From: Octopus vulgaris
Taxonomy: Eukaryota
Assembly: GCA_951406725.2 (NCBI GenBank)
Contig: OX597821.1
Location: 28,706,001-28,770,000 of the forward strand
Length of the DNA stretch: 64,000 bases
Direction: 5' to 3'
Shown here one piece after another: positions 2,231 to 58,800 of this stretch (position 1 is the first letter of the stretch; every line of letters begins with the position of its first letter). Made by a program: the position numbers and the translations under genes. The notes under the pieces are model-generated. The model was given only the letters and a program-made list of their open reading frames with translations, was not told the DNA's origin and searched no databases.

Positions 2231-2233
<3 letters not shown>

Positions 2234-2824
2234 TCAATTTAGGGTAGTAAAAAATTCGATAGAAATTTATCACTACCAGCGGTTACTTTGCGGTTGGAGT
2301 TATGGCTGCTCTGTCTAGTGGACGAATGGCCTGTTTAGGCCATTCCTAAATTGTTATATATTTACATTTTTGTCTCATGACTATTTTTTTTTCCACTGGG
2401 CCGCTGGTAGTGATAAATTTCTATCGAATTTTTTACTACCCTAAATTGATTAATTGATTATTTTCTGACTAATTCTGAGATTGAATCGGCAGTTTATATT
2501 TGCTGCTGATAAGATTGGCGCTATTGCGCTGGTCTTCGAAAATTTTAAGACAGATATTCCAGAGGCTTCGATGCAGTAGCCTCGTGTATATTTGCCTCTA
2601 CCAAAGGTTTCTTTACTGACGAAGCGTGACCTATGGTGGATTAGCTTAATTTAATTTAATTAAGCTGGTCTATCATTAAAAACGCAGAAACGATGCATCG
2701 TCTAAAAGATGAATTAGGGTAAACGTTTTTTAATTTTTCACCTATTTCCGAATTATATTACTTTGCGGTTGGAGTTATGGCTGCTCTGTCTAGTGGACGA
2801 ATGGCCTGTTTAGGCCATTCCTAA

Positions 2825-2830
<6 letters not shown>
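2231..2830 (+). mobile_element. Hammerhead-bearing non-autonomous Penelope-type/retrozyme-like element (475-nt unit)
   Basis: Direct repeat 2283-2354 = 2758-2829; 2231-2282 is the reverse complement of 2401-2453; flanked by (TA)n on both sides; internal hammerhead. Confidence 0.75.
2611..2708 (+). ncRNA. Type I hammerhead ribozyme with extended stem II
   Basis: UUUA-CUGACGA(2616-2622)-A-GCGU..long hairpin..ACGC-A-GAAA(2687-2690)-CGAUGCAUCG-UC|UAAA; palindromic stem III; predicted cleavage after 2702. Confidence 0.75.
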
Positions 2831-9038: not shown

Positions 9039-10486
9039 TGATGTTGTTGCTTCTCGAGCCACACCTGGCTCATAAAGGCCGGTTTCCCGGTTTCCTTGGC
9101 GTATAGGTTCCCCACATGGACGGGACGCCGGTCCGTCGCAGGTGAGCTACTAGATGCAGGAGGAAAGAGTGAGAGAAAGTTGTGGCGAAAGAGTCAGCAG
9201 AAGGTCGACATTACCTTCTGCCGGAGCCGCGTGGAGCTTAGGTGTTTCGCTCATATACACACATATCGCCCCGTCTGAGATTCGAATCCGCGATCCCTCG
9301 ACCGTGAGTCCGCTCATCATCATCATTGTTCGACCGTGGTCGAGACAATGGAATTTACCATGCTATGCCAGACTTCACGGTCCATCATAGCATTACGGAG
9401 GTCCTGTTGCTGGATGCCTGTATCCCTGGAGATTACATCAGGGTAGGAGAGTGTGTGCCCTCTGGTATCGCGAGTAGATGGTTTCCAGAGGAGAAGAGTA
9501 GAAATTGCCTCGTTTTCAGCTCTACAGCAATGTCCAGCAAACTGGACTCTCCTACCTTTCACAAGAGATGACACAGGTGGTAGTTTCCCATATATTTGAA
9601 TTTTGGTTGGATGACGCTTCCACGAGAGATTTTGAGCTCTCATAAGGAGGCGAGTGTAGGTTCCATCCAACCGCCTCTCAAGCTTCTTTGATAACGTCCA
9701 GGTTTCTGAGCCATATAGTAGAATTGGTTCGATTGTGGCTTTGAAGATTTGAAGTTTGAAGTCTCTACTTAGATTTGATGACCAGATCTTATACATGTCA
9801 TTACAGGCTGACCAGGCCATACCCTTTCTAGTTAGAAAATCTTTTCCAGATTATGATATGTATGACCCAAGATATTTGTAATCAGAAACCATATTTAAGG
9901 GCGCATTGTTGATAGTATGGATGATGCAATCACTGTTGGACAGGCACTTGTTTATATATTCAGTCTTGGCCTCATTGAGGTAAAGACCTACACAATTTGA
10001 GGTTTGTTCGAGAGATTGTAAAAGAGACTGGGCATTGGAAAGTGAATCACTGATAAGAGCGATGTCGTCAGCAAAGTCAGTGTCTGTCAAGTATTCAGCT
10101 AGGTGTCTGGAACTTCTACTTGGTTTTATTTCAAAGCCCTTGCCAGAGATGGTATCAACTGACATACGTAGCACATAGTCAACGATAATGATGAAGAGAA
10201 ATGGGGCGAGTGTGTCTCCCTGCAGTATTCCGGCTTTGATTAAGAAAGATGATGTTTCTCCGTCATGGGTTAAGATGGTTGAAGACGTCTCTGTGTAGGG
10301 GACCTTGATGGCAGAAATGATTTTGTCTGGTATCCCATAGAGCTTATGGATTTCAAACATCTTGTACCTATCTACAGAGTCGAACGCTTTAGAAAAGTCT
10401 ACAAACACCATTGCAAGATTGCGATTAAATGCTTTTGATTCTTCAATAAGTCTGCGTGCTCTAACCACTACGCCATGTGCATCCAC
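9039..10486 (-). mobile_element. tRNA-derived SINE split by an RTE LINE insertion
   Basis: SINE body 9039-9314, head remainder about 10457-10486 (A box TGGCGTAGTGG on minus); 13-bp TSD TTCGCCCTACTTT at 9026-9038 and 10487-10499. Confidence 0.8.
9315..10456 (-). mobile_element. RTE-clade LINE, 5'-truncated, young (RT + C-terminus, one frameshift near 9850)
   Basis: ORFs with FVDFSKAFDSV, GILQGDTLAPFLF, DFADDIAL, YKYLGS and LLYGSETWTL; (TGA)n tail. Confidence 0.92.
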
Positions 10487-10924
10487 TTCGCCCTACTTTG
10501 CATTCAATGGCTATTATATTTGTGTCTATATTGGTCACAAGGCCGCATATCGAGACAGATTTTAGTATACATTAACTAAAATAATCTTTAAAATCATATA
10601 ATGGTCATTGATATCACACCGTTCTTCAAAAGTCTCTTCGAATTATGCGGTTGTTCCTAGTGACGCAGAACTTTCGGTTGAACTAATTCTACTTAGTCTT
10701 AATCAAATCAATTGTAAATATAACAGCATGAAAAGAATAGGAGTGACATAATGCATTTTTTTGCGATACTATATAGCCTATTTGGAAATATAATAGGCTT
10801 AAAGAAGTTTTACGTTCTCGTACTTATACCACTATAAACGATATATGTGTGTGTGTGTATACCCCCACGCACATACACACATACACACGTACATACACAC
10901 ATACACGCATATACATTAATTATA

Positions 10925-13604: not shown

Positions 13605-15216
13605 AGCGTTGAACAGAAAGAATACAATGAGAAAAGTTAGACGAAAGCAGAGTAGACGAAAACTAATCGGACAGGAAATTGGACGACACGATATATGGCA
13701 TGTTCGCAGCTGAGTTTTCCTCTTCAATCGAAGACGCAAAATATAACAGTCTCATGCCAATTACATTTAAACCTGCTCACTTTTGCGGGTGCCAGCACCT
13801 TTATTAAGCTACTGGGAAAAAGCTAGCGAATGTGTGCTAAGACAGGAACAAACAAGACATACAAATACCACGTACAACGAATTATGAATGTATAACAACA
13901 TGAAGCTTTACGGCTATATAGAAACGACGGAAAAATTATTATTATTATACATATACCACAAATACAGCAGAAAGAGCCTTGCAGCTGTCGAACAAACCAA
14001 GTGGGATTGCACAAAAAGGAAATAAGGTTCTAAAGGATAGAACGGGCGTAACAGGAGCCGAAGCCAGTGTGACCAGTGTCGTCAAAGGTAGGGTGGAAAA
14101 GAACGACACCATTTTTACCGAGCGCTGGTCACATGGTATGGAAAAGGAAGTATTGAGAGAAAGAAAAAGGGGATAACAGAGAGAGAGAGAGAGAGAGAGA
14201 ATGAAGGATCAGAGGTAGAAAGCAATGGAAAACGATAGAGGGAGAGAAAACGAAAGAGCAGAATGAGAGAGAGGAAATGTGTAATGGTGGCAATCGGGGG
14301 CGCAAGAGAGGGTAAGAATGGAGAAAGAGAGAGTAAGATACGGGTTGGAAAAGGATATATATATGTCTGTGTGTGTGTGCGCGCGCTTGTGTGTGTGTGC
14401 GCGCTTGTGTGTGTGTGTGTGTATACGTATATATGTATCGGCGATCTTTCAGTTTTCGTATAACAAATCTACTCAAAAAGCTTTGGTCTGCTCAAGGCTA
14501 TAGAACACAGTCACCGAAGGTGACACGCAGTAGGAGCGAACCCGGAGTCATGTGGTTGGGAAGTATGATTCTCATTTCTAATTCTCTTTGCTTACCTCAA
14601 TGTTCTGCTCGAAGTTTGCAGACGTGTTCCTTTCTCTGCTCAAAACCTTAACGCTTTGTTATTAAAGTTTTCTCTTTTTCATATATACATGTATATGTAT
14701 ATATACATATATACATATAAAAGAATCCAATTTATAATTGAGTATAATGCACGTTGTATTGTAATTCAGGGTGTTTCGATAACACATGCGCTTTTCTACG
14801 GTGTAGTTGAAACATGCAGTTAACATCACACGAGATTTGTTTATTATCAGAAGGCGTGGCGCCTGTTGTATTAATTATATCTCCTTTGTAGATATCTGCA
14901 ACTTTTTTGCAGCATCAGCAACTAAACTACTAATATATCAGATTTTGACAAATGTTTTTTTTTTTTTTGTATTTTATACAATTTTTGCTGCGTATTCCTT
15001 GATTTGCGGAGGATATAATCTAAAGGTACTTGTGAGTAGAGGAGAATTTTAATACTGACAAGTTATATCCATGTTTGGATTCCCTATCTCCTTGTAAGTA
15101 AAGGCTTACATATACATACATATATTTACGTGTGTCTATACCAGTGTGTGTGTGCGTTTTTGAGTGTGGGTCTTTTCTAAACGTATATGAGTATGCATGC
15201 ATGTGTGAATATATGT

Positions 15217-16114
15217 ATGTAGTATGCGAATATAAACAAGAAGGGTAGTAATATTATTTACTACCAGGTGCCCAGCACAAAAGACGAATTAGTCATAAGA
15301 CAAAAATATTATTCATATAGAAAAATATTATTCATGTAGTTATACAATTAGGGGCTCCTAAATTAGGATGCCGAGTGCTGGGAACACAGAAAGGGGATGA
15401 ATTTATCGAGAGTGAAAATCAAAAACGTTTACCGATAATTTTAACAACTCGAACCGCGGTTTCTGCTTCTTTCTAGCAAAACACAGAATATGTTTGCTAA
15501 GGCTAGAAAGAAGCAGAAACCGCGGTTCGAGTTGTTAAAATTTGTTTTGCTAGAAAGAAGCAGAAACCGCGGTTCGAGTTGTTAAAATTATCGGTAGACG
15601 TTTTTGATTTTCACTTTCGATAAATTCATCCCCTTTTTGTGTTTCCAGCACTCGGCATCCTAATTTAGGAGCCCCTAATTGTATAACTACATGAATAATA
15701 TTTTTCTATATGAATAATATTTTTGTCTTATGACTAATTCGTCTTTTGTGCTGGGCTACCCTTCTTGTTTATATTCGCATATTACATGATGGATTTATTC
15801 GTAAAATTCTTCCCGGCTTGCCCTATACTGCCGTGTAAGTTTTGCGTCTGTGCAGAGATTTGAAAAGTTAAGATCTGCTAGTAGTCGTGTTCAACACATG
15901 GTCCCACATCGCTGCAGACCTCGATTAAATTTAGGCGACTCGCTGATGAAGCTAGCCTTAGCAAACATATTCTGTGTTTTGCTAGAAAGAAGCAGAAACC
16001 GCGGTTCGAGTTGTTAAAATTATCGGTAAACGTTTTTGATTTTCACTCTCGATAAATTCATCCCCTTTTTGTGTTCCCAGCACTCGACATCCTAATTTAG
16101 GAGCCCCTAATTGT
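15217..16114 (+). mobile_element. Hammerhead-bearing Penelope-type/retrozyme-like element (432-nt period) with inverted 5' copy
   Basis: Direct repeat 15544-15684 matches 15976-16114; 15217-15505 is an inverted copy; 15502-15541 is a short extra direct copy. Confidence 0.8.
15934..16015 (+). ncRNA. Type I hammerhead ribozyme with extended stem II
   Basis: Stem I GGCGACUCG/CGAGUUGUU; CUGAUGA 15943-15949; A-GCU..hairpin..AGC-A; GAAA 15995-15998; stem III palindrome AACCGCGGUU; GUU cleavage after 16006. Confidence 0.85.
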
Positions 16115-16178
16115 ATGTATATACAAAGATACATGTATATAGATGCATGTATGAATAAGTACATATATACATATATAT

Positions 16179-16226
<48 letters not shown>

Positions 16227-24018: not shown

Positions 24019-24430
24019 TTTACTCTTTTACTCTTTTACTTGTTTCAGTCATTTGACTGCGGCCGTGCTGGAGCACCGCCTTTAGTCGAGCAAATCGACC
24101 CCAGGACTTATTCTTTGTAAGCCCAGTACTTATTCTATCGGTCTCTTTTGCCGAACCGCTATGTGACGGGGACATAAACACACGAGGCATCGGTTGTCAA
24201 GCAATGCTAGGGGGACAAACACAGACACACAAATATACACACCCATACATATATATATATACATATATCCGACAGGCTTCTTTCAGTTTCCGTCTACCAA
24301 ATCCACTGACGAGGCATTGGTCGGCCCGAGGCTATAGCAGAAGACACTTGCCCAAGATGCACGCAGTGGGACTGAACCCGGAACCATGTGGTTGGTAAGC
24401 AAGCTACTTACCACACAGCCACTCCTGCGC
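24019..24430 (-). mobile_element. tRNA-derived SINE, full length
   Basis: Reverse complement of 33020-33428; TSD ATAAATATATTT at 24010-24021 and 24437-24448. Confidence 0.92.
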
Positions 24431-25952
24431 GTACAATAAATATATTTTTTAAATGCTGAGAAATTTAGGGGTATATATCTTCACAAAAGATCCACTGAAT
24501 AACGATACACCTGAAAGGTTACATATGTGATATCCCTACATTATAAATGTTAAAGAGATTGTCATCATTTACATATTGCTTCTCCTGAAAACTGGACCAG
24601 CAAGGAACAATTATATTGGATAATAATGCAGTGCTTGGCAATGGAAAAGTAGGAATTATAAATTGTTCAGCAATCAATGTAACATTGTATCGATCAACAA
24701 GCTGCAACGATCATCTTATTTCACTTTTTTTTTTCAATACTGATATTTAGTTTCATTTCTCGATGGTGGAGTGACATCTTAGTTATAATTATTGTTTTGT
24801 AACTGTAACGATATCTATTTGATTCGTTTGGCATAAGAAATATCTTGTCTAGATATAGTATGATTACATATCTATGATGAATTTATCTCCATCAATTTTG
24901 GCGCTACATGTCATCTTGGAAAATATATAAAGTTATAGTTAACAGAACTCTATACAATATCTACAGAAGTAAATGTACGCAAGTTTTCATAAAACGGATA
25001 ATCATCCCTCTATCGACATTTTCGTTTATGATAATGACGTTTCTTTTTTTCCTTTTCATAACAATTTTCTTCTCCCCTTATAGATTATTCGTTATATATC
25101 TACATATTTACTATATGTATATTTATTATTATTTATATTCACATCTATACTTGTTTTATTTGCATGTACTAGTGTGTCATCTCAGCGATAAAACACGTGA
25201 TCAAAAGCTGTCTGGGTTTATGTTATAATACCTGTCCTCCTTTGTTCTAGCTTAACATCCAGATTGGTCAATACTGCTTGTCATGAAAGTTGACAGCCAA
25301 TATTTTCCTGTTTTATTTTATGGCAGCAAATGTTGGCAAGGTATTATCTTTCATTGAAGCGGGGTGTCAGACACAAACTACGAATACAACAAACGATATG
25401 TAATGCCATACTTTATGTAGGAAACGAAAACAAAAACAGAAAAGCATCAAAACACTTGAAAGACATGGTAACATACATATAGGAATATTCATTTACAAAT
25501 ATATATATATATATGTGTGTGTGTGGATGTGTGTGTGTATGTGTGTGTATGTGTGTATACACAGGCATGCATGTACACAAATCTACAGACACACAAGCAC
25601 ATATAAATACATAGATACCTGAATTGTTTATTTTTGTATATGTATATGCATACGTTTCTCTTCATAGACAAGTTATTGTGTTGTCAAAACTATGAATGAT
25701 AAGCATTAGAAAACTAAAATAGATTCAACTTAGTAACATGAAATGAATATCAGAAAATATTGAAAGATACTTCATCAACATTGAAATTTTGTCAGTAAGT
25801 TTACCTACAATATGTCTAGTGTTTAGGCCTAAAATAATTGGATCTTATACACTCATGTATGTAGTTTAAACACAGATACACCGCATACACCGATACAGCG
25901 CATACACAGACACACACATGCACACGCACACATGCATACACATACATATAAA

Positions 25953-33002: not shown

Positions 33003-33019
33003 AAAAAAAATATTCTATG

Positions 33020-33428
33020 TAGGTGCAGGAGTGGCTGTGTAGTAAGTAGCTTGCTTACCAACCACATGGTTCCGGGTTCAGTCCCACTGCGTGGCACCTT
33101 GCGCAAGTGTCTTCTACTATAGCCTCGGGCCGACCAAAGCCTTGTGAGTGGATTTGGTAGACGGAAACTGAAAGAAGCCCGTCATATATATGTATATATA
33201 TGTATGTGTGTGTGCTTGTGTGTCTGTGTTTGTCCCCCTAGCATTGCTTGACAACCGATATTGGTGTGTTTATGTCCCCGTTACTTAGCGGTTCGGCAAA
33301 ACAGACCGATATAATAAGTACTGGGCTTACAAAAGAATAAGTCCTGGGGTCGAGTTGCTCGATTAAAAGCGGTGCTCCAGCATGGCCCCAGTCAAAATGA
33401 CTGAAACAAGTAAAAGAGTAAAAGAGTA
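33020..33428 (+). mobile_element. tRNA-derived SINE, full length, most abundant family here
   Basis: A box TGGCTGTGTAG, B box GGTTCAGTCC, internal TA/TG tract and GTAAAAGA tail; many copies in the window. Confidence 0.92.
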
Positions 33429-33561
33429 ATTGCTGAAATATATTGTGATGAATTACATATTTCAAAACGTTGCTTAATTTCTACTCAGCCTGGTGTGTGT
33501 GTGTGTATCTACGTATGTGTGTATCACACACACACACATATATGTATCTAAATTTAATATT

Positions 33562-39801: not shown

Positions 39802-40213
39802 GTACTCTTTTACTTGTTTCAGTCATTTGACTGTGGCCGGGCTGGAGCACCGCCTTTAGTCGAGCAAATCGACCCTAAGACGTATTCTTTGTAAGCATAG
39901 TACTAATTATATCGGTCTCTTTTACCGAACCACTAATTTACGGGGACGTAAACACACCAGCATCGGTTGTCAAGCGATGTTGGGTGGACACACACTGACA
40001 CACAAATATATGCACACACATACATATATATATATATATCCATATATACGACAGGCTTCCTTCAGCCTCCGTCCACCAAATCCACTCACAAGGCTTTGGT
40101 CGGCCCGGGGCTATAGCAGAAGACACTTGCCCAAGATGCCACGCAGTGGGACTAAACCCGGAACCATGTGGTTGGTAAGCAAGCTACTTACCACACAGCC
40201 ACTCCTACGCCTA
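39802..40213 (-). mobile_element. tRNA-derived SINE, full length
   Basis: Near-identical to 24019-24430. Confidence 0.92.
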
Positions 40214-40662
40214 TAAAAAAGTTAAGAACGTATAGAGGTTTTATGAAAACGCTGAAATTTTAAATGAACAGCGCTTTACAATGTTGTATTCTAGGATTTA
40301 GAAAAAAAGTACTCAAATATATCTGAAAATTTTGACTACCAAATCATACGTTTATTTGTATTATGTATTTCTCTAATGATATCGATAAAATGGTATCCAC
40401 AGTTATCCATTTTAGGGTATTCAAACATTTGATGATGTACTGCCATATATGAAGAATAAGCAACCAAGAACGAACATTTTCAGAACCGCCGATTTAAATG
40501 ATAAGAAGCTTATCTCTAATGAATATTGCTATTATAATAATCTAATTTTCCGTTGGTTTTCAGTTCTGAATTCGAATCTTCCCATTACGTTTGCTTCTCT
40601 CGCATCTCTTGCTATGTGATTTATTGGAAATTACTACGATCATTACAGGAGAATATATTTCT

Positions 40663-41246
40663 AATTTCTATATTGCTCACAAGGGGTTAAACATAGAGAG
40701 GACAAACAAGGACAGACAAAGGGAATAAGTCGATTACATCGACCCCAGTGCGTAACAGGTATTTAATTTATCGACCCTGAAAGGATGAAAGGCAAAGTTG
40801 ACCTCGGCGGAATTCGAACTCAGTATGTAAAGAGGACGAAATACCTATTTTTTTACTACCCACAAGGGCTAAGCATAGAGAGGACAAACAAGGACAGACA
40901 AAGGGAATAAGTCGATTGCATCGACCCCAGTGCGTAACAGGTACTTAATCTATCGACCCTGAAAGGATGAAAGGCAAAGTCGACCTCGGCGGAATTCGAA
41001 CTCAGAATGTAAAGAGGACGAAATACCTATTTTTTTACTACCCACAAGGGCTAAGCATAGAGAGGACAAACAAGGACAGACAAAGGGAACAAGTCGATTC
41101 ATCGACCCCAGTGCGTAACAGGTACTTAATCTATCGACCCTGAAAGGATGAAAGGCAAAGTCGACCTCGGTGGAATTCGAACTCAGAAAATAAAGACAGA
41201 CGAAATACCGCTAAACATTTCGCTCGACGTGCTAACGTTTCTGCCA
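40663..41246 (-). mobile_element. Head-to-tail SINE trimer (about 182-bp period)
   Basis: CACAAGGG recurs at 40678, 40861 and 41043; monomer at 48528-48760; 17-bp TSD CAGGAGAATATATTTCT at 40646-40662 and 41245-41261. Confidence 0.9.
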
Positions 41247-48527: not shown

Positions 48528-48760
48528 AGGCGGCGAGCTGGCAGAAACGTTAGCACGCCGGGCGAAATACGTAGCCGTATTTCGTCTGTCGCTACGTTCT
48601 GGGTTCAAATTTCGCCGAGGTCGACTTTGCCTTTTATCCTTTCGGGGTCGATAAATTAAGTACTAGTTACGCACTGGGGTCGATGTAATCGACTTAAACC
48701 GTGTGTCTGTCCTTGTTTGTCCCCACTGTGTTTCGCCCCTTGTGGGTAGTAAAGAAATAG
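48528..48760 (+). mobile_element. tRNA-derived SINE monomer
   Basis: TGGCAGAAACGTTAGCACG..GGGTTCAAATT; TSD AGATAT(T/A)ACTAAGGAA at 48509-48524 and 48759-48774. Confidence 0.88.
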
Positions 48761-49183
48761 ATATAACTAAGGAAGTAGAAATGACTCGAATTCAAGAATG
48801 ATTCACGGAATTCTATTTCATTTTATTCCATACAGCATGTTGATATATTAAATGGAAATTCATGTAAAGACTTACAGAAATAAAATGGTTTAATTCAGAA
48901 AGTTCTTCTAAAGTTCAGTCAGAGAAGAAATTTCAAATAACCAGATATGTTAAGATATTATTTGACAAATAATAGTAAAATGAAAATGTCACCATAGTCC
49001 AAAGTTCGTTATTAAAATATTTTGTTTGAACAGAATGTCAAAGTGCATGTCTGTGCAATTGGCTTTATGGATGTGTTTGCGTATGAGTGTATATGACTTG
49101 GAAAAAAATTTAACGAATGATACCATACTCTACTGCTCATTTATACTGATATATATATATATCCATACACACACACGCGCGCG

Positions 49184-55315: not shown

Positions 55316-56041
55316 AATAACTTTCTTTATTGACCACACAGGGCTGGATACAGAGGGGACAATTACAAATGTAGAGCTTTTCTTTTCGAAGATGGAAAAG
55401 GAAAAAGAAGAAAAAAAGGAGACAAATGTAAAATTTCGATCAAAAGGGATCGGAAAAAAACAAACGATCAAATGGATCGTGTATGACAGAGAGAATTTTT
55501 TTTTCACAGTAACAAACGAGATTAGGTTCAATCGTAGAAAGAAAATCCTACAGAAAAGACCACGGTAACCTCAGGCAAGCAGAAAATAAACATGTGAGAG
55601 CAAAGTGCTCTCTCTCTTTTACGATTTACAGGATCATGCTCAAAGTGGTTTCGTCACTGGCACGCACCATCTTTTTTTGAAAATTTTCACGAGACGAACT
55701 CACCATACTCACCTCACTTTTCAAGCGGTACTTGAAAAAGTTGATGAGCGATTGGCCAGAGAGGTATGTGTTTGTCTCTAATCCTTTCGCTCGAGTCCAC
55801 CACACACATTCTTCCACCATAGCAACCTGTACGATAATGACTGCTTTGCCTTCCTGGTTGAGGGAAGGGGGCGGTGCAATACTGACGATAGACTCGGCCG
55901 ACAGGCAGACTCGTCCCACACGTGACAGCAGCTGTTCGGCATAAGCCCACAGGTCCGAAATGGATGGACACTGTACGAGCGCGTGCAGAACGGTTTCGTC
56001 GCTCTGACCGCATCTCGGGCAAGTCGGTCCAGTGTGTCTCG
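55316..56041 (-). mobile_element. Tx1/L1-clade LINE 3' fragment
   Basis: Zinc finger CPRCGQSDETVLHALVQC, 3' UTR, AATAAA, then (TATC)n; paralogous to 56134-56850. Confidence 0.85.
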
Positions 56042-56062
56042 AAGATAGATAGATTGATAGAC

Positions 56063-56133
<71 letters not shown>

Positions 56134-56135
<2 letters not shown>

Positions 56136-58800
56136 TGTTTCTTTATTAGCCACACAGGGCTGCACACAGATGGGACAGATTACAAAGTAGAGCATTTCTT
56201 TTTGGTGGAGAGAAAAAAATGAGGTGGGTTAGGTTTTCGATCAAAAGGGATCGTAAAAGGGAAAGAAGAAAACAAAGGGGAAAAAAGGAAAGAAAAACGA
56301 TCAATAGGGACCATATATCACAGTGTCATGGTGTAAAGTGTAATGGGGGAAGCAGATGAGATTTATCCGTGGGAAGAAAAGCATACGGAAAAGACCACGG
56401 TAACCTCGGTCGATGATGTTACATGTTACCACATTTGTTTGCAAGTAGGTAACCCTCTGATTTAAATTTTACGGGTTCATAGGATTATGCTCAAGGTGGC
56501 TTCGTTATTCATACGTGCCATCCTTGATATATTCACCCATCATTTTTTTAAACATTCGCCAGACAAAACTTGCCTCTCTACTCTCACTTTCCTTTTCAAG
56601 TGATACTTTAAAAAGTTGATGAGAGATTGACCAGCGAGGAAAGTGTTTGTCTCCAATCCTTTCAAACGTATCCACCAGATACATTCTTTCGCCATAGCCA
56701 CAAGGATAATGAAAATAGCTCTTCCTTCCCGTTTGATAGAAGGAGGCGTGACAATATTGACGATAGACTCGGCTGAGTGCGTGCAGAACGGTTTTGTCGC
56801 TCTGACCGCATCTCTAGCAGGTCGGCCCCGTGTTTCTCGACCTGTGTCTGTAGAGCTTATCCCTAACGGGTAGCGCTTCTCGGTAGCACTGCCAGGCCAG
56901 GGATCTCTGGAAGTTGTCCATGGACTCTGGCCCGAAAGTCGTCCTGAACAGGCGGGTCAGGTATTCCTCGTCGACGTCCAGGTTCGACCCGAGCTCGTCA
57001 TCGTACCTCCCCTCCACTAATTCCCTATAGAATGATTTGGTTGTTTTGAATCACTAAAGGTCGACCCGAGACGGCATAGTTACATGAGAGCAACACGACA
57101 CTCGTGGTGCCATTCGCCCTTCCTCGGCCTCTTTTTGATCCACGACTGCAGTTCGGTCATGGAGACGAGTTGCGGGAAAGCACGCCTCACAAACGGCGAC
57201 CACACCTGTTGACCATCGTCTGCGTAGAGCCTGAGATGTTGCAGTCTCAGCGCGTGTCTGCGCATCATCAACCACGGCATGCCCAGTCCTCCTTTTAACG
57301 GGTGTTGACAGCAAATGAATCACCTAACCATCGGCAATAATGGCTCGAGAGTCAATACGTTGAGAAGCGACGAGACCGAACGTACAATATCGAAAGCTCT
57401 CGATAGATGTCCATTTATGCGAATTAGCGAGCGGATATCTCCGTACAATGCGGCTATCCAACCGCGGAAGACGGGACCGAAACCAGCCGCTCTGAGGACA
57501 GCCTCCAAGCATCGATGGTCTACCCTATCGAATGCTTTCGACTGATCCAAATTGATCAGCGCCCAACCCATGCCAGGTTCCTTAACTACCCTGTCTATGA
57601 TGTAGCGCATCAGGTGAAGGTTGTCATGGATGCTCCAGCTCGGCACGGCGCACGTTTGTTCCTTGTCGACCAGTTTCTAGATGACAAACGCCAACCTCTT
57701 GGCTAACAGCTTGGCCAAAATTTTCAAGTCTGCATTAAGCAGAGTGATGGGCCTAAAGTTATCTATTACATTCCCCTTGGTAAGATCTTTCTTCAGCAGT
57801 GTTACGGCTCCTCGGCTCACAAAACCAGGAATGCTCTTGTTTTGCTGCCAGATGCAGTACACCGCTGCCAAGACGTCTCCAAACAAGTCTGTAAAGCTCG
57901 TAGGGTAGACCATATAAACCCGGCGATTCTGCCATCGCCTCCTGCACTTCCGCCGCCGTGATGGCACCTTCGCAGCGCCCTGCCTCTCTTGTCGAGAGTC
58001 GTGGTAGGCTGTGTAGGTAGACACTGAAGTCCACCCTACATTCTTGCCCGTCACTCGTCCCGAACAGTTGGGCAAAATGCTGTTGAAAAGCCTCACCCAT
58101 TTTGCTTGGCTCGAGCAATTCGCGCCCCTGTTCATCTACCAGAGACTGAATGGTGGCTTTGTTACCCTGTTGCACCTCTGCCACCCGGACCTCTCACGCG
58201 GCTCCAACACCTTCGTTCCTTAGAGCAGTATCCTATCTATATACGATCTCGACGACCCGATGCGGTTGCTCCATGTCCACGTTGGCGCATTCGGGTGGTC
58301 GAGTCGGTTCCTGTCAGACAGTTGAAAGCGTCTGAGCAGGTCTCTGAGGCATTTTCATCCCCGTCTATTCCTATCTCTACCCACGTAGTCTACATGCGTA
58401 AAGGACGAGATGTTCCAAAGAATACTTCTAGATGTTGAAAGAAATCCGCCCGACCTATTAAAGGCGGTGCGTAGACTGATACGAGTCGAAAAGCGCACAC
58501 ATTGCTGCCGTCGACATCCATGACGACCAGTCTACCCTCCGGGTCTACGAATAGTCTTTACTTTGAGATCCAGACTCCTGCGAAAAAGTACCGCGGTTCC
58601 ACTACGCCCATTCTTGGCAGACAAGGGGAAAATAAATGTTGAACTGTCCGCCAAACATGGTCTTTATGGCCCGCGGATTTTGGAGTCTGGTCTCACTCAT
58701 GGCTATGATTTCTAACTTGTGTGACTTTATGTTATTACGAGGTACCCTTGTTTCCAAGGGGTCCCCAAGCCACGCGCATTTACACAACCAATCTTGATCA
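56134..58800 (-). mobile_element. Tx1/L1-clade LINE ORF2 (endonuclease + RT + zinc finger), decayed with internal deletions; ORF1/5' remnant may extend to about 59340
   Basis: EIIAMSETRL (endonuclease), NFRPITLLNADLKILAK and IHDNLHLMRYII..LDQSKAFDRVDH (RT); AATAAA plus (TATC)n at the 3' end. Confidence 0.9.

What the first reader, a model, noticed from the sequence alone, without database searches (positions are those of the whole stretch)
15217..16114. 432-nt hammerhead unit captured as a 1.3-mer plus an inverted copy that reads through the cleavage site
This is the best-formed hammerhead in the window (9-bp stem I, intact core). GAAACCGCGGUU recurs at 15563 and 15995, giving a period of 432. 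The inverted copy (15217-15505) runs from stem II across the cleavage site, and the strand switch occurs at the stem II hairpin, followed by a 40-nt stutter (15502-15541). This suggests RT template switching on a structured circular or multimeric RNA (inference). Its 3' end CCTAATTGTA resembles that of the 2.2-kb family (CCTAAATTGTA).
Basis: partly seen in the sequence, partly recalled or inferred. Interest (0 to 1): 0.72.

Follow-up and report, generated by a model that had tools for sequence, protein, structure and literature searches.

The report
Hammerhead retrozyme, two-armed Penelope-type insertion
This is one ordinary copy of a small, protein-less jumping repeat that carries a predicted self-cutting RNA motif, and its back-to-back shape, shared by about half of the copies examined, likely arises because a Penelope-type enzyme copies the RNA from both ends of a cut in the DNA, starting at two different fixed points.

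Summary
In detail: a type I hammerhead (15934-16015), a 1.33-unit direct arm, an inverted arm across the cleavage site and a 41-nt duplicate. It is one insertion of a 445-454-nt non-coding repeat family (non-LTR retrozyme). The 432 period is a private 22-nt deletion from a 454-nt unit. Of 96 loci, 48 are two-armed. Outer ends fall at two fixed sites, about 111 and 222-230 nt after the cut, in (TA)n. Two-armed loci use one of each in 32 of 33 cases. The strand switch is not tied to stem II (10 of 94 other breakpoints, 9.7 expected), and fold-back of the cDNA cannot make this inverted arm. Best reading: a Penelope-like RT/GIY-YIG protein primes cDNA from both target ends, and the two cDNAs join by microhomology. 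A circular template is plausible but not shown. RT+GIY-YIG elements with hammerheads and two ends are present in the genome, but the partner was not identified. Cleavage and expression are untested. This scan reported the same anatomy for 360- and 490-nt families elsewhere in this genome. New member of a known kind.

The parts
15217..15506 (-). Inverted arm, 290 nt, unit positions u400 to u235 (numbered from the base after the cut, 454-nt frame); crosses the cleavage site and ends at the second fixed site S2; keeps the 22 nt missing from the direct arm
15502..15506 (.). 5-nt microhomology GCTAG at the head-to-head joint of the two arms
   Evidence: overlap 5
15502..15542 (+). 41-nt duplicate piece (u429 to about u15), identical to 15549-15589 and 15981-16021; likely a template jump or local duplication
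   Evidence: (D5)
15543..16116 (+). Direct arm, 574 nt (1.33 periods), u423 through one full unit to u110; ends at the first fixed site S1
15755..15756 (+). Site of a 22-nt deletion (u182-203, a small hairpin) found in 1 of 129 loci; turns the 454-nt unit into 432
15934..16015 (+). Complete predicted type I hammerhead: stem I 15934-15942/16007-16015, core 15943-15949, extended stem II 15950-15994 with A.A at its base, GAAA 15995-15998, palindrome 15998-16005, GUU triplet, predicted cut 16006^16007
16086..16116 (+). S1 end: small predicted hairpin followed by TTGTAT, running into TA-rich flank
15185..15216 (.). Left flank, degenerate TA/TATG repeat (target)
16117..16224 (.). Right flank, degenerate then pure (TA)n (target); no target duplication can be read in it

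Best explanation
This is one insertion of a 445-454-nt non-coding repeat family with a predicted type I hammerhead in each unit (a non-LTR retrozyme), likely written into a TA repeat by a Penelope-like RT/GIY-YIG protein acting in trans, which likely primed cDNA from both ends of the cut DNA at two fixed sites of the RNA before the two cDNAs were joined head to head. Shown: family size, tandem arrays, two fixed outer ends (S1 about u111, S2 about u222-230), their pairing, (TA)n flanks, microhomology at inner joints, alleles shared by the arms of a locus, and PLEs with the same kind of ends in the genome. Inferred: the enzyme, priming from both strands, joining of the cDNA 3' ends, and an uncleaved template. 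A monomer circle is favoured (about 0.5) over a linear multimer. Cleavage, probably as a dimer through the stem III palindrome, is predicted and untested.
For: Family: 997 first-look candidates, 40 scored; exact hammerhead patterns match 50 (GUU, period 454), 135 (GUA, period 445) times, control 0. Of 96 loci 48 are two-armed; of 144 outer ends 50 are at S1, 73 at S2, 21 elsewhere; 32 of 33 loci with both ends classed pair S1 with S2, p 4e-9; 18 of 19 in pattern-selected loci only; 8 of 8 in a third subfamily and 4 of 4 in the 475-nt sister family. 119 of 123 S1/S2 ends run into (TA)n. Each arm reads as antisense cDNA extended from a target 3' end (sequence). Overlaps of 3 nt or more at 11 of 37 flush joints against 5.9% expected. 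Arms of one locus share 21 rare alleles against 0.6 in cross-locus controls; divergence 0.7% vs 2.0%. The three window copies share C101, found at 4 places genome-wide, 3 of them here. Stem III changes sequence but stays palindromic, stem II covaries (GCU/AGC, GCC/GGC, AAUC/GAUU; GCG/CGC read). RT+GIY-YIG ORFs of 771-781 aa exist; relatives carry hammerhead-like motifs, end in (TA)n at two sites about 35 nt apart, and L241 has a 766-nt inverted arm. Literature: PLE tandem/inverted anatomy, tail at one end, (TA)n bias (PMC8557442); a PLE protein cuts and extends both strands from two internal RT starts (PMC11167929).
Against: No PLE with a terminal repeat homologous to this unit among 46 stretches fetched around GIY-YIG hits, some overlapping, out of 6136 candidates. 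The S1-S2 distance is 111-119 nt, not the 30-40 nt reported for PLE tails. 21 of 144 outer ends are at neither site, and one locus (L167) pairs S2 with S2. 79 rare alleles are not shared between arms against 20 shared. L046 and L044 carry alleles in subsets of units, which a single monomer circle does not explain. C86, first taken as private, is common in a third subfamily. No Rfam match; the hammerhead is not the predicted ground-state fold. In vitro, the PAc protein showed no strand difference in RT start site and did not need hammerhead cleavage. Loci were chosen by hammerhead pattern or best score, so the share of long arms and of arms crossing the cut is inflated.
Confidence: 0.8

Rival explanations
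1. One reading: one RT copies a structured RNA, stalls at hammerhead stem II and switches strand or folds back there, giving the inverted copy and the stutter.
For: In this locus all three inner ends (u400, u423, u429) lie in stem II, and the 5-nt overlap is the largest of 48. Inner ends within 30 nt of each other occur in 10 of 48 loci against 6.4 expected, p 0.10.
Against: Stem II is not enriched in other loci (10 of 94 vs 9.7). The inverted arm is not contained in any one stretch of the direct arm and holds 22 nt that the direct arm lacks. Its outer end is the family's fixed S2 site.
Confidence: 0.07
2. Same two-ended PLE priming, but on uncleaved linear multimeric transcripts (or two RNA molecules) from genomic arrays; the hammerhead plays no part in transposition and no circle is involved.
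For: Hammerhead cleavage was not needed for PAc insertion in vitro (PMC11167929). Subset alleles in L046 and L044. No breakpoints at the cut site fits any uncleaved template.
Against: 26 rare alleles are fixed in every copy of a locus against 8 in subsets; the fixed ones are 12 of 26 T>C against 21 of 122 among singletons, p 0.003, which fits a one-unit bottleneck. Related retrozymes accumulate as circles (PMC7229834 section 14). Ribozyme structure covaries.
Confidence: 0.35
3. DNA-level origin: a satellite unit amplified and inverted after insertion by recombination or replication slippage.
For: Subset alleles within arrays could be gene conversion; the 22-nt deletion and the 41-nt duplicate could be later DNA events.
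Against: Dispersed loci on many contigs with two fixed outer ends, scattered inner ends and S1+S2 pairing.
Confidence: 0.04
4. Assembly artefact of a repeat between microsatellites.
For: No direct read support for this joint was obtained.
Against: The three copies differ from one another at 2 of 110, 4 of 110 and 5 of 213 sites; 48 loci show the same build with different joints.
Confidence: 0.02

Closest known systems
Metazoan non-LTR retrozymes (PMC7229834: passages and section 14; bioRxiv 10.64898/2026.07.22.740005: part 1 of 5 and passages)
   Same: Non-coding, low-GC (38%) tandem units with one type I hammerhead each; short palindromic stem III; dispersed monomers to multimers; proposed non-autonomous PLE derivatives.
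   Different: Unit of 445-454 nt, at the upper edge of the 150-450 bp range. Long stem II with A.A at its base. Two-armed insertions with two fixed ends were not seen in the passages read ('inverted' occurs 0 times in PMC7229834; once in the preprint). Cleavage and circles are shown there, untested here.
EN+ Penelope-like elements (PMC8557442 passages; PMC11167929 parts 1-2 of 4; PMC4209133 passages)
   Same: Partial tandems, inverted 5'-truncated copy, extension at one end only, (TA)n targets, internal RT starts downstream of a hammerhead with palindromic helix III.
   Different: No ORF. The extension is 111-119 nt instead of 30-40. No homologous pLTR of an autonomous element was found.
L1 twin priming (recalled; no call read its definition)
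   Same: Both target strands prime cDNA; arms join by microhomology.
   Different: No poly(A). Both start sites are internal and fixed. Arms do not stop at the other primer's site (1 of 45 and 1 of 35).

Membership tests
Non-LTR retrozyme | Type I hammerhead motif in each unit | tested here: met
   Core and stems parsed in the window and in relatives; no Rfam hit, so a prediction
Non-LTR retrozyme | [quoted passage not shown] | tested here: met
   Periods 445 and 454, up to about 9.8 units in L044
Non-LTR retrozyme | Non-coding, low GC | tested here: met
   No ORF of 150 aa or more overlaps the element; GC 0.38
Non-LTR retrozyme | [quoted passage not shown] | tested here: inconclusive
   Met by family arrays (L044, L167); not met by this copy, which has one complete motif
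Non-LTR retrozyme | Self-cleavage | not testable with these tools
   Only folding and covariation
Non-LTR retrozyme | Expressed as linear and circular RNA | not testable with these tools
   Needs northern or raw RNA reads
Non-LTR retrozyme | No LTR, PBS or PPT | not tested
   No LTR-like pair seen in the sequence; PBS and PPT were not searched
Autonomous EN+ PLE | ORF with RT and GIY-YIG | tested here: not met
   present only elsewhere in the genome
PLE-type insertion (non-autonomous) | Partial tandem with inverted 5'-truncated copy | tested here: met
   48 of 96 loci two-armed
PLE-type insertion (non-autonomous) | Tail extension at one end from two RT start sites | tested here: met
   S1+S2 in 32 of 33; length 111-119 nt, longer than the reported 30-40
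PLE-type insertion (non-autonomous) | AT-rich or (TA)n target | tested here: met
   119 of 123 ends
PLE-type insertion (non-autonomous) | Homology to the pLTR of an autonomous PLE | tested here: inconclusive
   None in the stretches examined; only a small sample of 6136 candidates
L1-type twin priming | One arm stops where the other primer sits; poly(A) priming | tested here: not met
   no poly(A) ends; definition recalled

The most novel reading that the evidence does not exclude
Each insertion is written by a dimeric Penelope RT that holds one hammerhead-made circular monomer, hands the two cut DNA ends to two mutually exclusive start sites 111-119 nt apart, and rolls round the circle from both. 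Locus-fixed T>C alleles would then record a one-unit bottleneck at every generation, making these repeats a genomic read-out of how PLE tandem/inverted structures form and of what the hammerhead is for.
Probability: 0.35. Interest if true: 0.65.

Novelty: new member of a known kind. Interest (0 to 1): 0.4.

Why it matters
The element itself is ordinary. Its value lies in the statistics. How PLEs make tandem and inverted copies is named as an open question in PMC8557442, and the role of their hammerhead is unclear after PMC11167929. A young non-coding family with two start sites more than 100 nt apart, used one per end in 44 of 45 typed loci over three sets, gives a sharp prediction for the existing in vitro system and a short template to test it with.

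Tried and rejected
Rfam scan: no match. Stem II as inversion hot spot: rejected. Fold-back origin of the inverted arm: rejected. C86 as a private allele: rejected; L313 as parent: rejected, it lacks C86 and has C101 in one arm only. A-to-I editing as source of locus-fixed alleles: not supported, A>G 2 of 26 fixed vs 12 of 122 singletons. L250 hammerhead as the pLTR of the neighbouring PLE ORF: rejected, it is a separate repeat between TA tracts about 1.1 kb from the ORF. L249 S1-like piece as a lead to the partner: the family found stops before that piece. Sequencing runs: no RNA holder listed. Contigs of 7 runs laid in two calls cover the family, but none listed bridges the inner joint; uninformative. 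Constrained parse missed the 475-nt hammerhead in 25 of 26 loci because its stem II exceeds the search span. Earlier-notes look-ups by sequence and near this place were empty. Rows dropped before counts: a distant hit in L037 and nested duplicates in L042 and L054; short inverted arms in L062 and L042 were missed by the parser, so 48 two-armed loci is a lower bound.

Full report
Observation. From left to right: degenerate TA flank; an inverted arm 15217-15506; a 41-nt piece 15502-15542; a direct arm 15543-16116 of 1.33 periods with one complete hammerhead at 15934-16015; TA flank. The hammerhead has a 9-bp stem I, an intact CUGAUGA/GAAA core, a long stem II with A.A at its base, a palindromic ACCGCGGU in stem III and a GUU triplet. 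Rfam does not call it, and alone it prefers another fold. The palindrome forms a -14.1 kcal/mol self-duplex but no hairpin, the arrangement that PMC4209133 (passages) links to dimer cleavage.

Family. The own genome (2.8 Gb) gives 997 first-look candidates, 40 scored. Exact patterns define a GUU subfamily (50 matches, period 454), a GUA subfamily (135 matches, 100 listed, period mostly 445) and a third group with ACUGAUCAGU and GUC (within 53 matches). The window copy belongs to the 454-nt group. Its 432 period comes from a 22-nt deletion seen in 1 of 129 loci and absent from its own inverted arm. The structure covaries: stem III is ACCGCGGU, ACUGAUCAGU or ACCGAUCGGU in the family, ACGAUGCAUCGU and ACCAAUUGGU in two sister families; stem II closes with GCU/AGC, GCC/GGC, GCG/CGC or AAUC/GAUU. 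Against this, 31 GUA loci carry a C.A mismatch in the third pair of stem II.

Insertion anatomy. I parsed 96 loci (28 scored with the GUU set, 68 with the GUA set). 48 have two arms back to back. Of 144 outer ends, 50 lie at u100-118 (39 at u111), 73 at u215-236 (38 at u222, 23 at u230) and 21 elsewhere. Where both ends could be classed, 32 of 33 loci pair S1 with S2; 15 further two-armed loci have an end outside both zones. The rule holds in 18 of 19 pattern-selected loci, 8 of 8 in the third subfamily and 4 of 4 in the 475-nt sister family. 119 of 123 such ends run into (TA)n. The window copy follows the rule: u235 on the left, u110 on the right. Read from each flank's 3' end, each arm is antisense to the RNA, as expected if both DNA ends primed reverse transcription (inference).

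Inner joints. They are scattered (KS against uniform p 0.07). Stem II is not enriched once this locus is left out (10 of 94 vs 9.7), nor are paired bases. None of 96 lies within 10 nt of the cut site, so run-off from cleaved linear monomers is not the usual end. Overlaps of 3 nt or more occur at 11 of 37 flush joints against 5.9% by chance; here the overlap is GCTAG. The inverted arm maps to the direct arm only in two separate pieces, one with a 22-nt gap, so it was not copied from the first cDNA. An unexplained excess of inner ends lies at u45-89 (22 of 96 vs 9.5; the bin was chosen after seeing the data).

Template. The two arms of a locus are closer to each other (0.7%) than to arms of other loci (2.0%) and share 21 rare alleles against 0.6 in shuffled pairs. 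The window's three copies share C101, present at only one other place in the genome, and differ from each other by about 2%, so this insertion is older than average. Rare alleles fixed in all copies of a locus (26) outnumber those in subsets (8) and are rich in T>C (12 of 26 vs 21 of 122, p 0.003) and poor in C>T/G>A (2 of 26 vs 45 of 122). I read this as RT errors in one parent unit amplified through a one-unit bottleneck, which favours a circular monomer (inference). Many of these cases rest on only two copies, rarity was judged on the 96 loci alone (one of the 12, C86, later proved common elsewhere), and L046 and L044 show subset patterns that fit a mixed or multimeric template.

Enzyme. 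The genome has many GIY-YIG elements (6136 candidates, 150 scored). Four ORFs tested carry RT plus C-terminal GIY-YIG (RVT_1 above its cut-off in 1 of 4). Loci of the 781-aa family carry a hammerhead-like motif with palindromic stem III and end in (TA)n at two sites about 35 nt apart; L241 has a perfect 766-nt inverted arm. None shares a terminal repeat with this unit, so the partner is unidentified.

Comparison. The unit fits non-LTR retrozymes (PMC7229834, passages and section 14), which a 2026 preprint ties to PLE pLTRs (part 1 of 5 and passages; supplements not seen). The anatomy is that of PLEs: partial tandems, an inverted 5'-truncated copy, a tail at one end only, (TA)n bias (PMC8557442, passages). 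A purified PLE protein cuts and extends both strands from two internal start sites (PMC11167929, parts 1-2 of 4). What I did not find in print is the quantified one-site-per-end rule in a retrozyme, or a tail above 100 nt. That rests on five searches of an open-access library (listings only for papers not named above). Earlier notes of this scan describe the same anatomy for 360- and 490-nt families in this genome; they are unchecked AI notes, and I tested the idea only on this family and its sisters.

Verdict. Observation confirmed; interpretation partly supported; a new member of a known kind, with a useful mechanistic footprint. Interest 0.4.

Noticed in passing
window 2231-2830: Sister 475-nt hammerhead repeat, two-armed (S2 end left, S1 end right, about 100 nt apart), stem III ACGAUGCAUCGU, GUC triplet; 1739 first-look candidates. 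Both of its start sites follow the same CCTAAATTG motif.
   Followed up: partly
L170, L175, L178, L185, L188 and other third-subfamily loci: Core variant UUGAUGA in 12 loci and UUGAUAA in 5: a U3.G8 wobble with a possibly compensatory U3-A8, perhaps a single event. The C3-G8 pair is described in PMC11167929.
   Followed up: partly
L214-L239, L252: Abundant young PLE family (781-aa ORF copies) whose hammerhead-like motif has a UUGAUAA core, ACAUGU stem III and very short stem I.
   Followed up: partly
L250 4600-5260 (minus); L253-L282: Older sister hammerhead repeat of about 500 nt, 2049 candidates, two fixed ends about 127 nt apart, A.A at the stem II base, shares GGTAAAYGTTTTT after the cut with this family.
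   Followed up: partly
unit positions 45-89, 96 loci: Excess of inner breakpoints (22 of 96 vs 9.5; 14 of 58 in pattern-selected loci), unexplained.
   Followed up: partly
L046, L044: Alleles shared by subsets of units, in L046 across both arms: mixed template or later conversion.
   Followed up: partly
L059, L069: Internal skips of about u25-75 and u10-61 near a predicted stem after the cut site.
   Followed up: no
window 9323-10492 (minus): Two consecutive open frames that look like a LINE reverse transcriptase, RTE-like by recalled motifs.
   Followed up: no
window 55626-58135 (minus): Fragments that look like an L1/Tx1-type LINE by recalled motifs.
   Followed up: no
window 40664-41209: Three copies of a 182-nt unit, 95% alike, with a related piece at 48538-48765.
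   Followed up: no
window 24020-24450, 33003-33429, 39803-40220: Dispersed repeat of about 430 nt, 86-90% alike, SINE-like.
   Followed up: no
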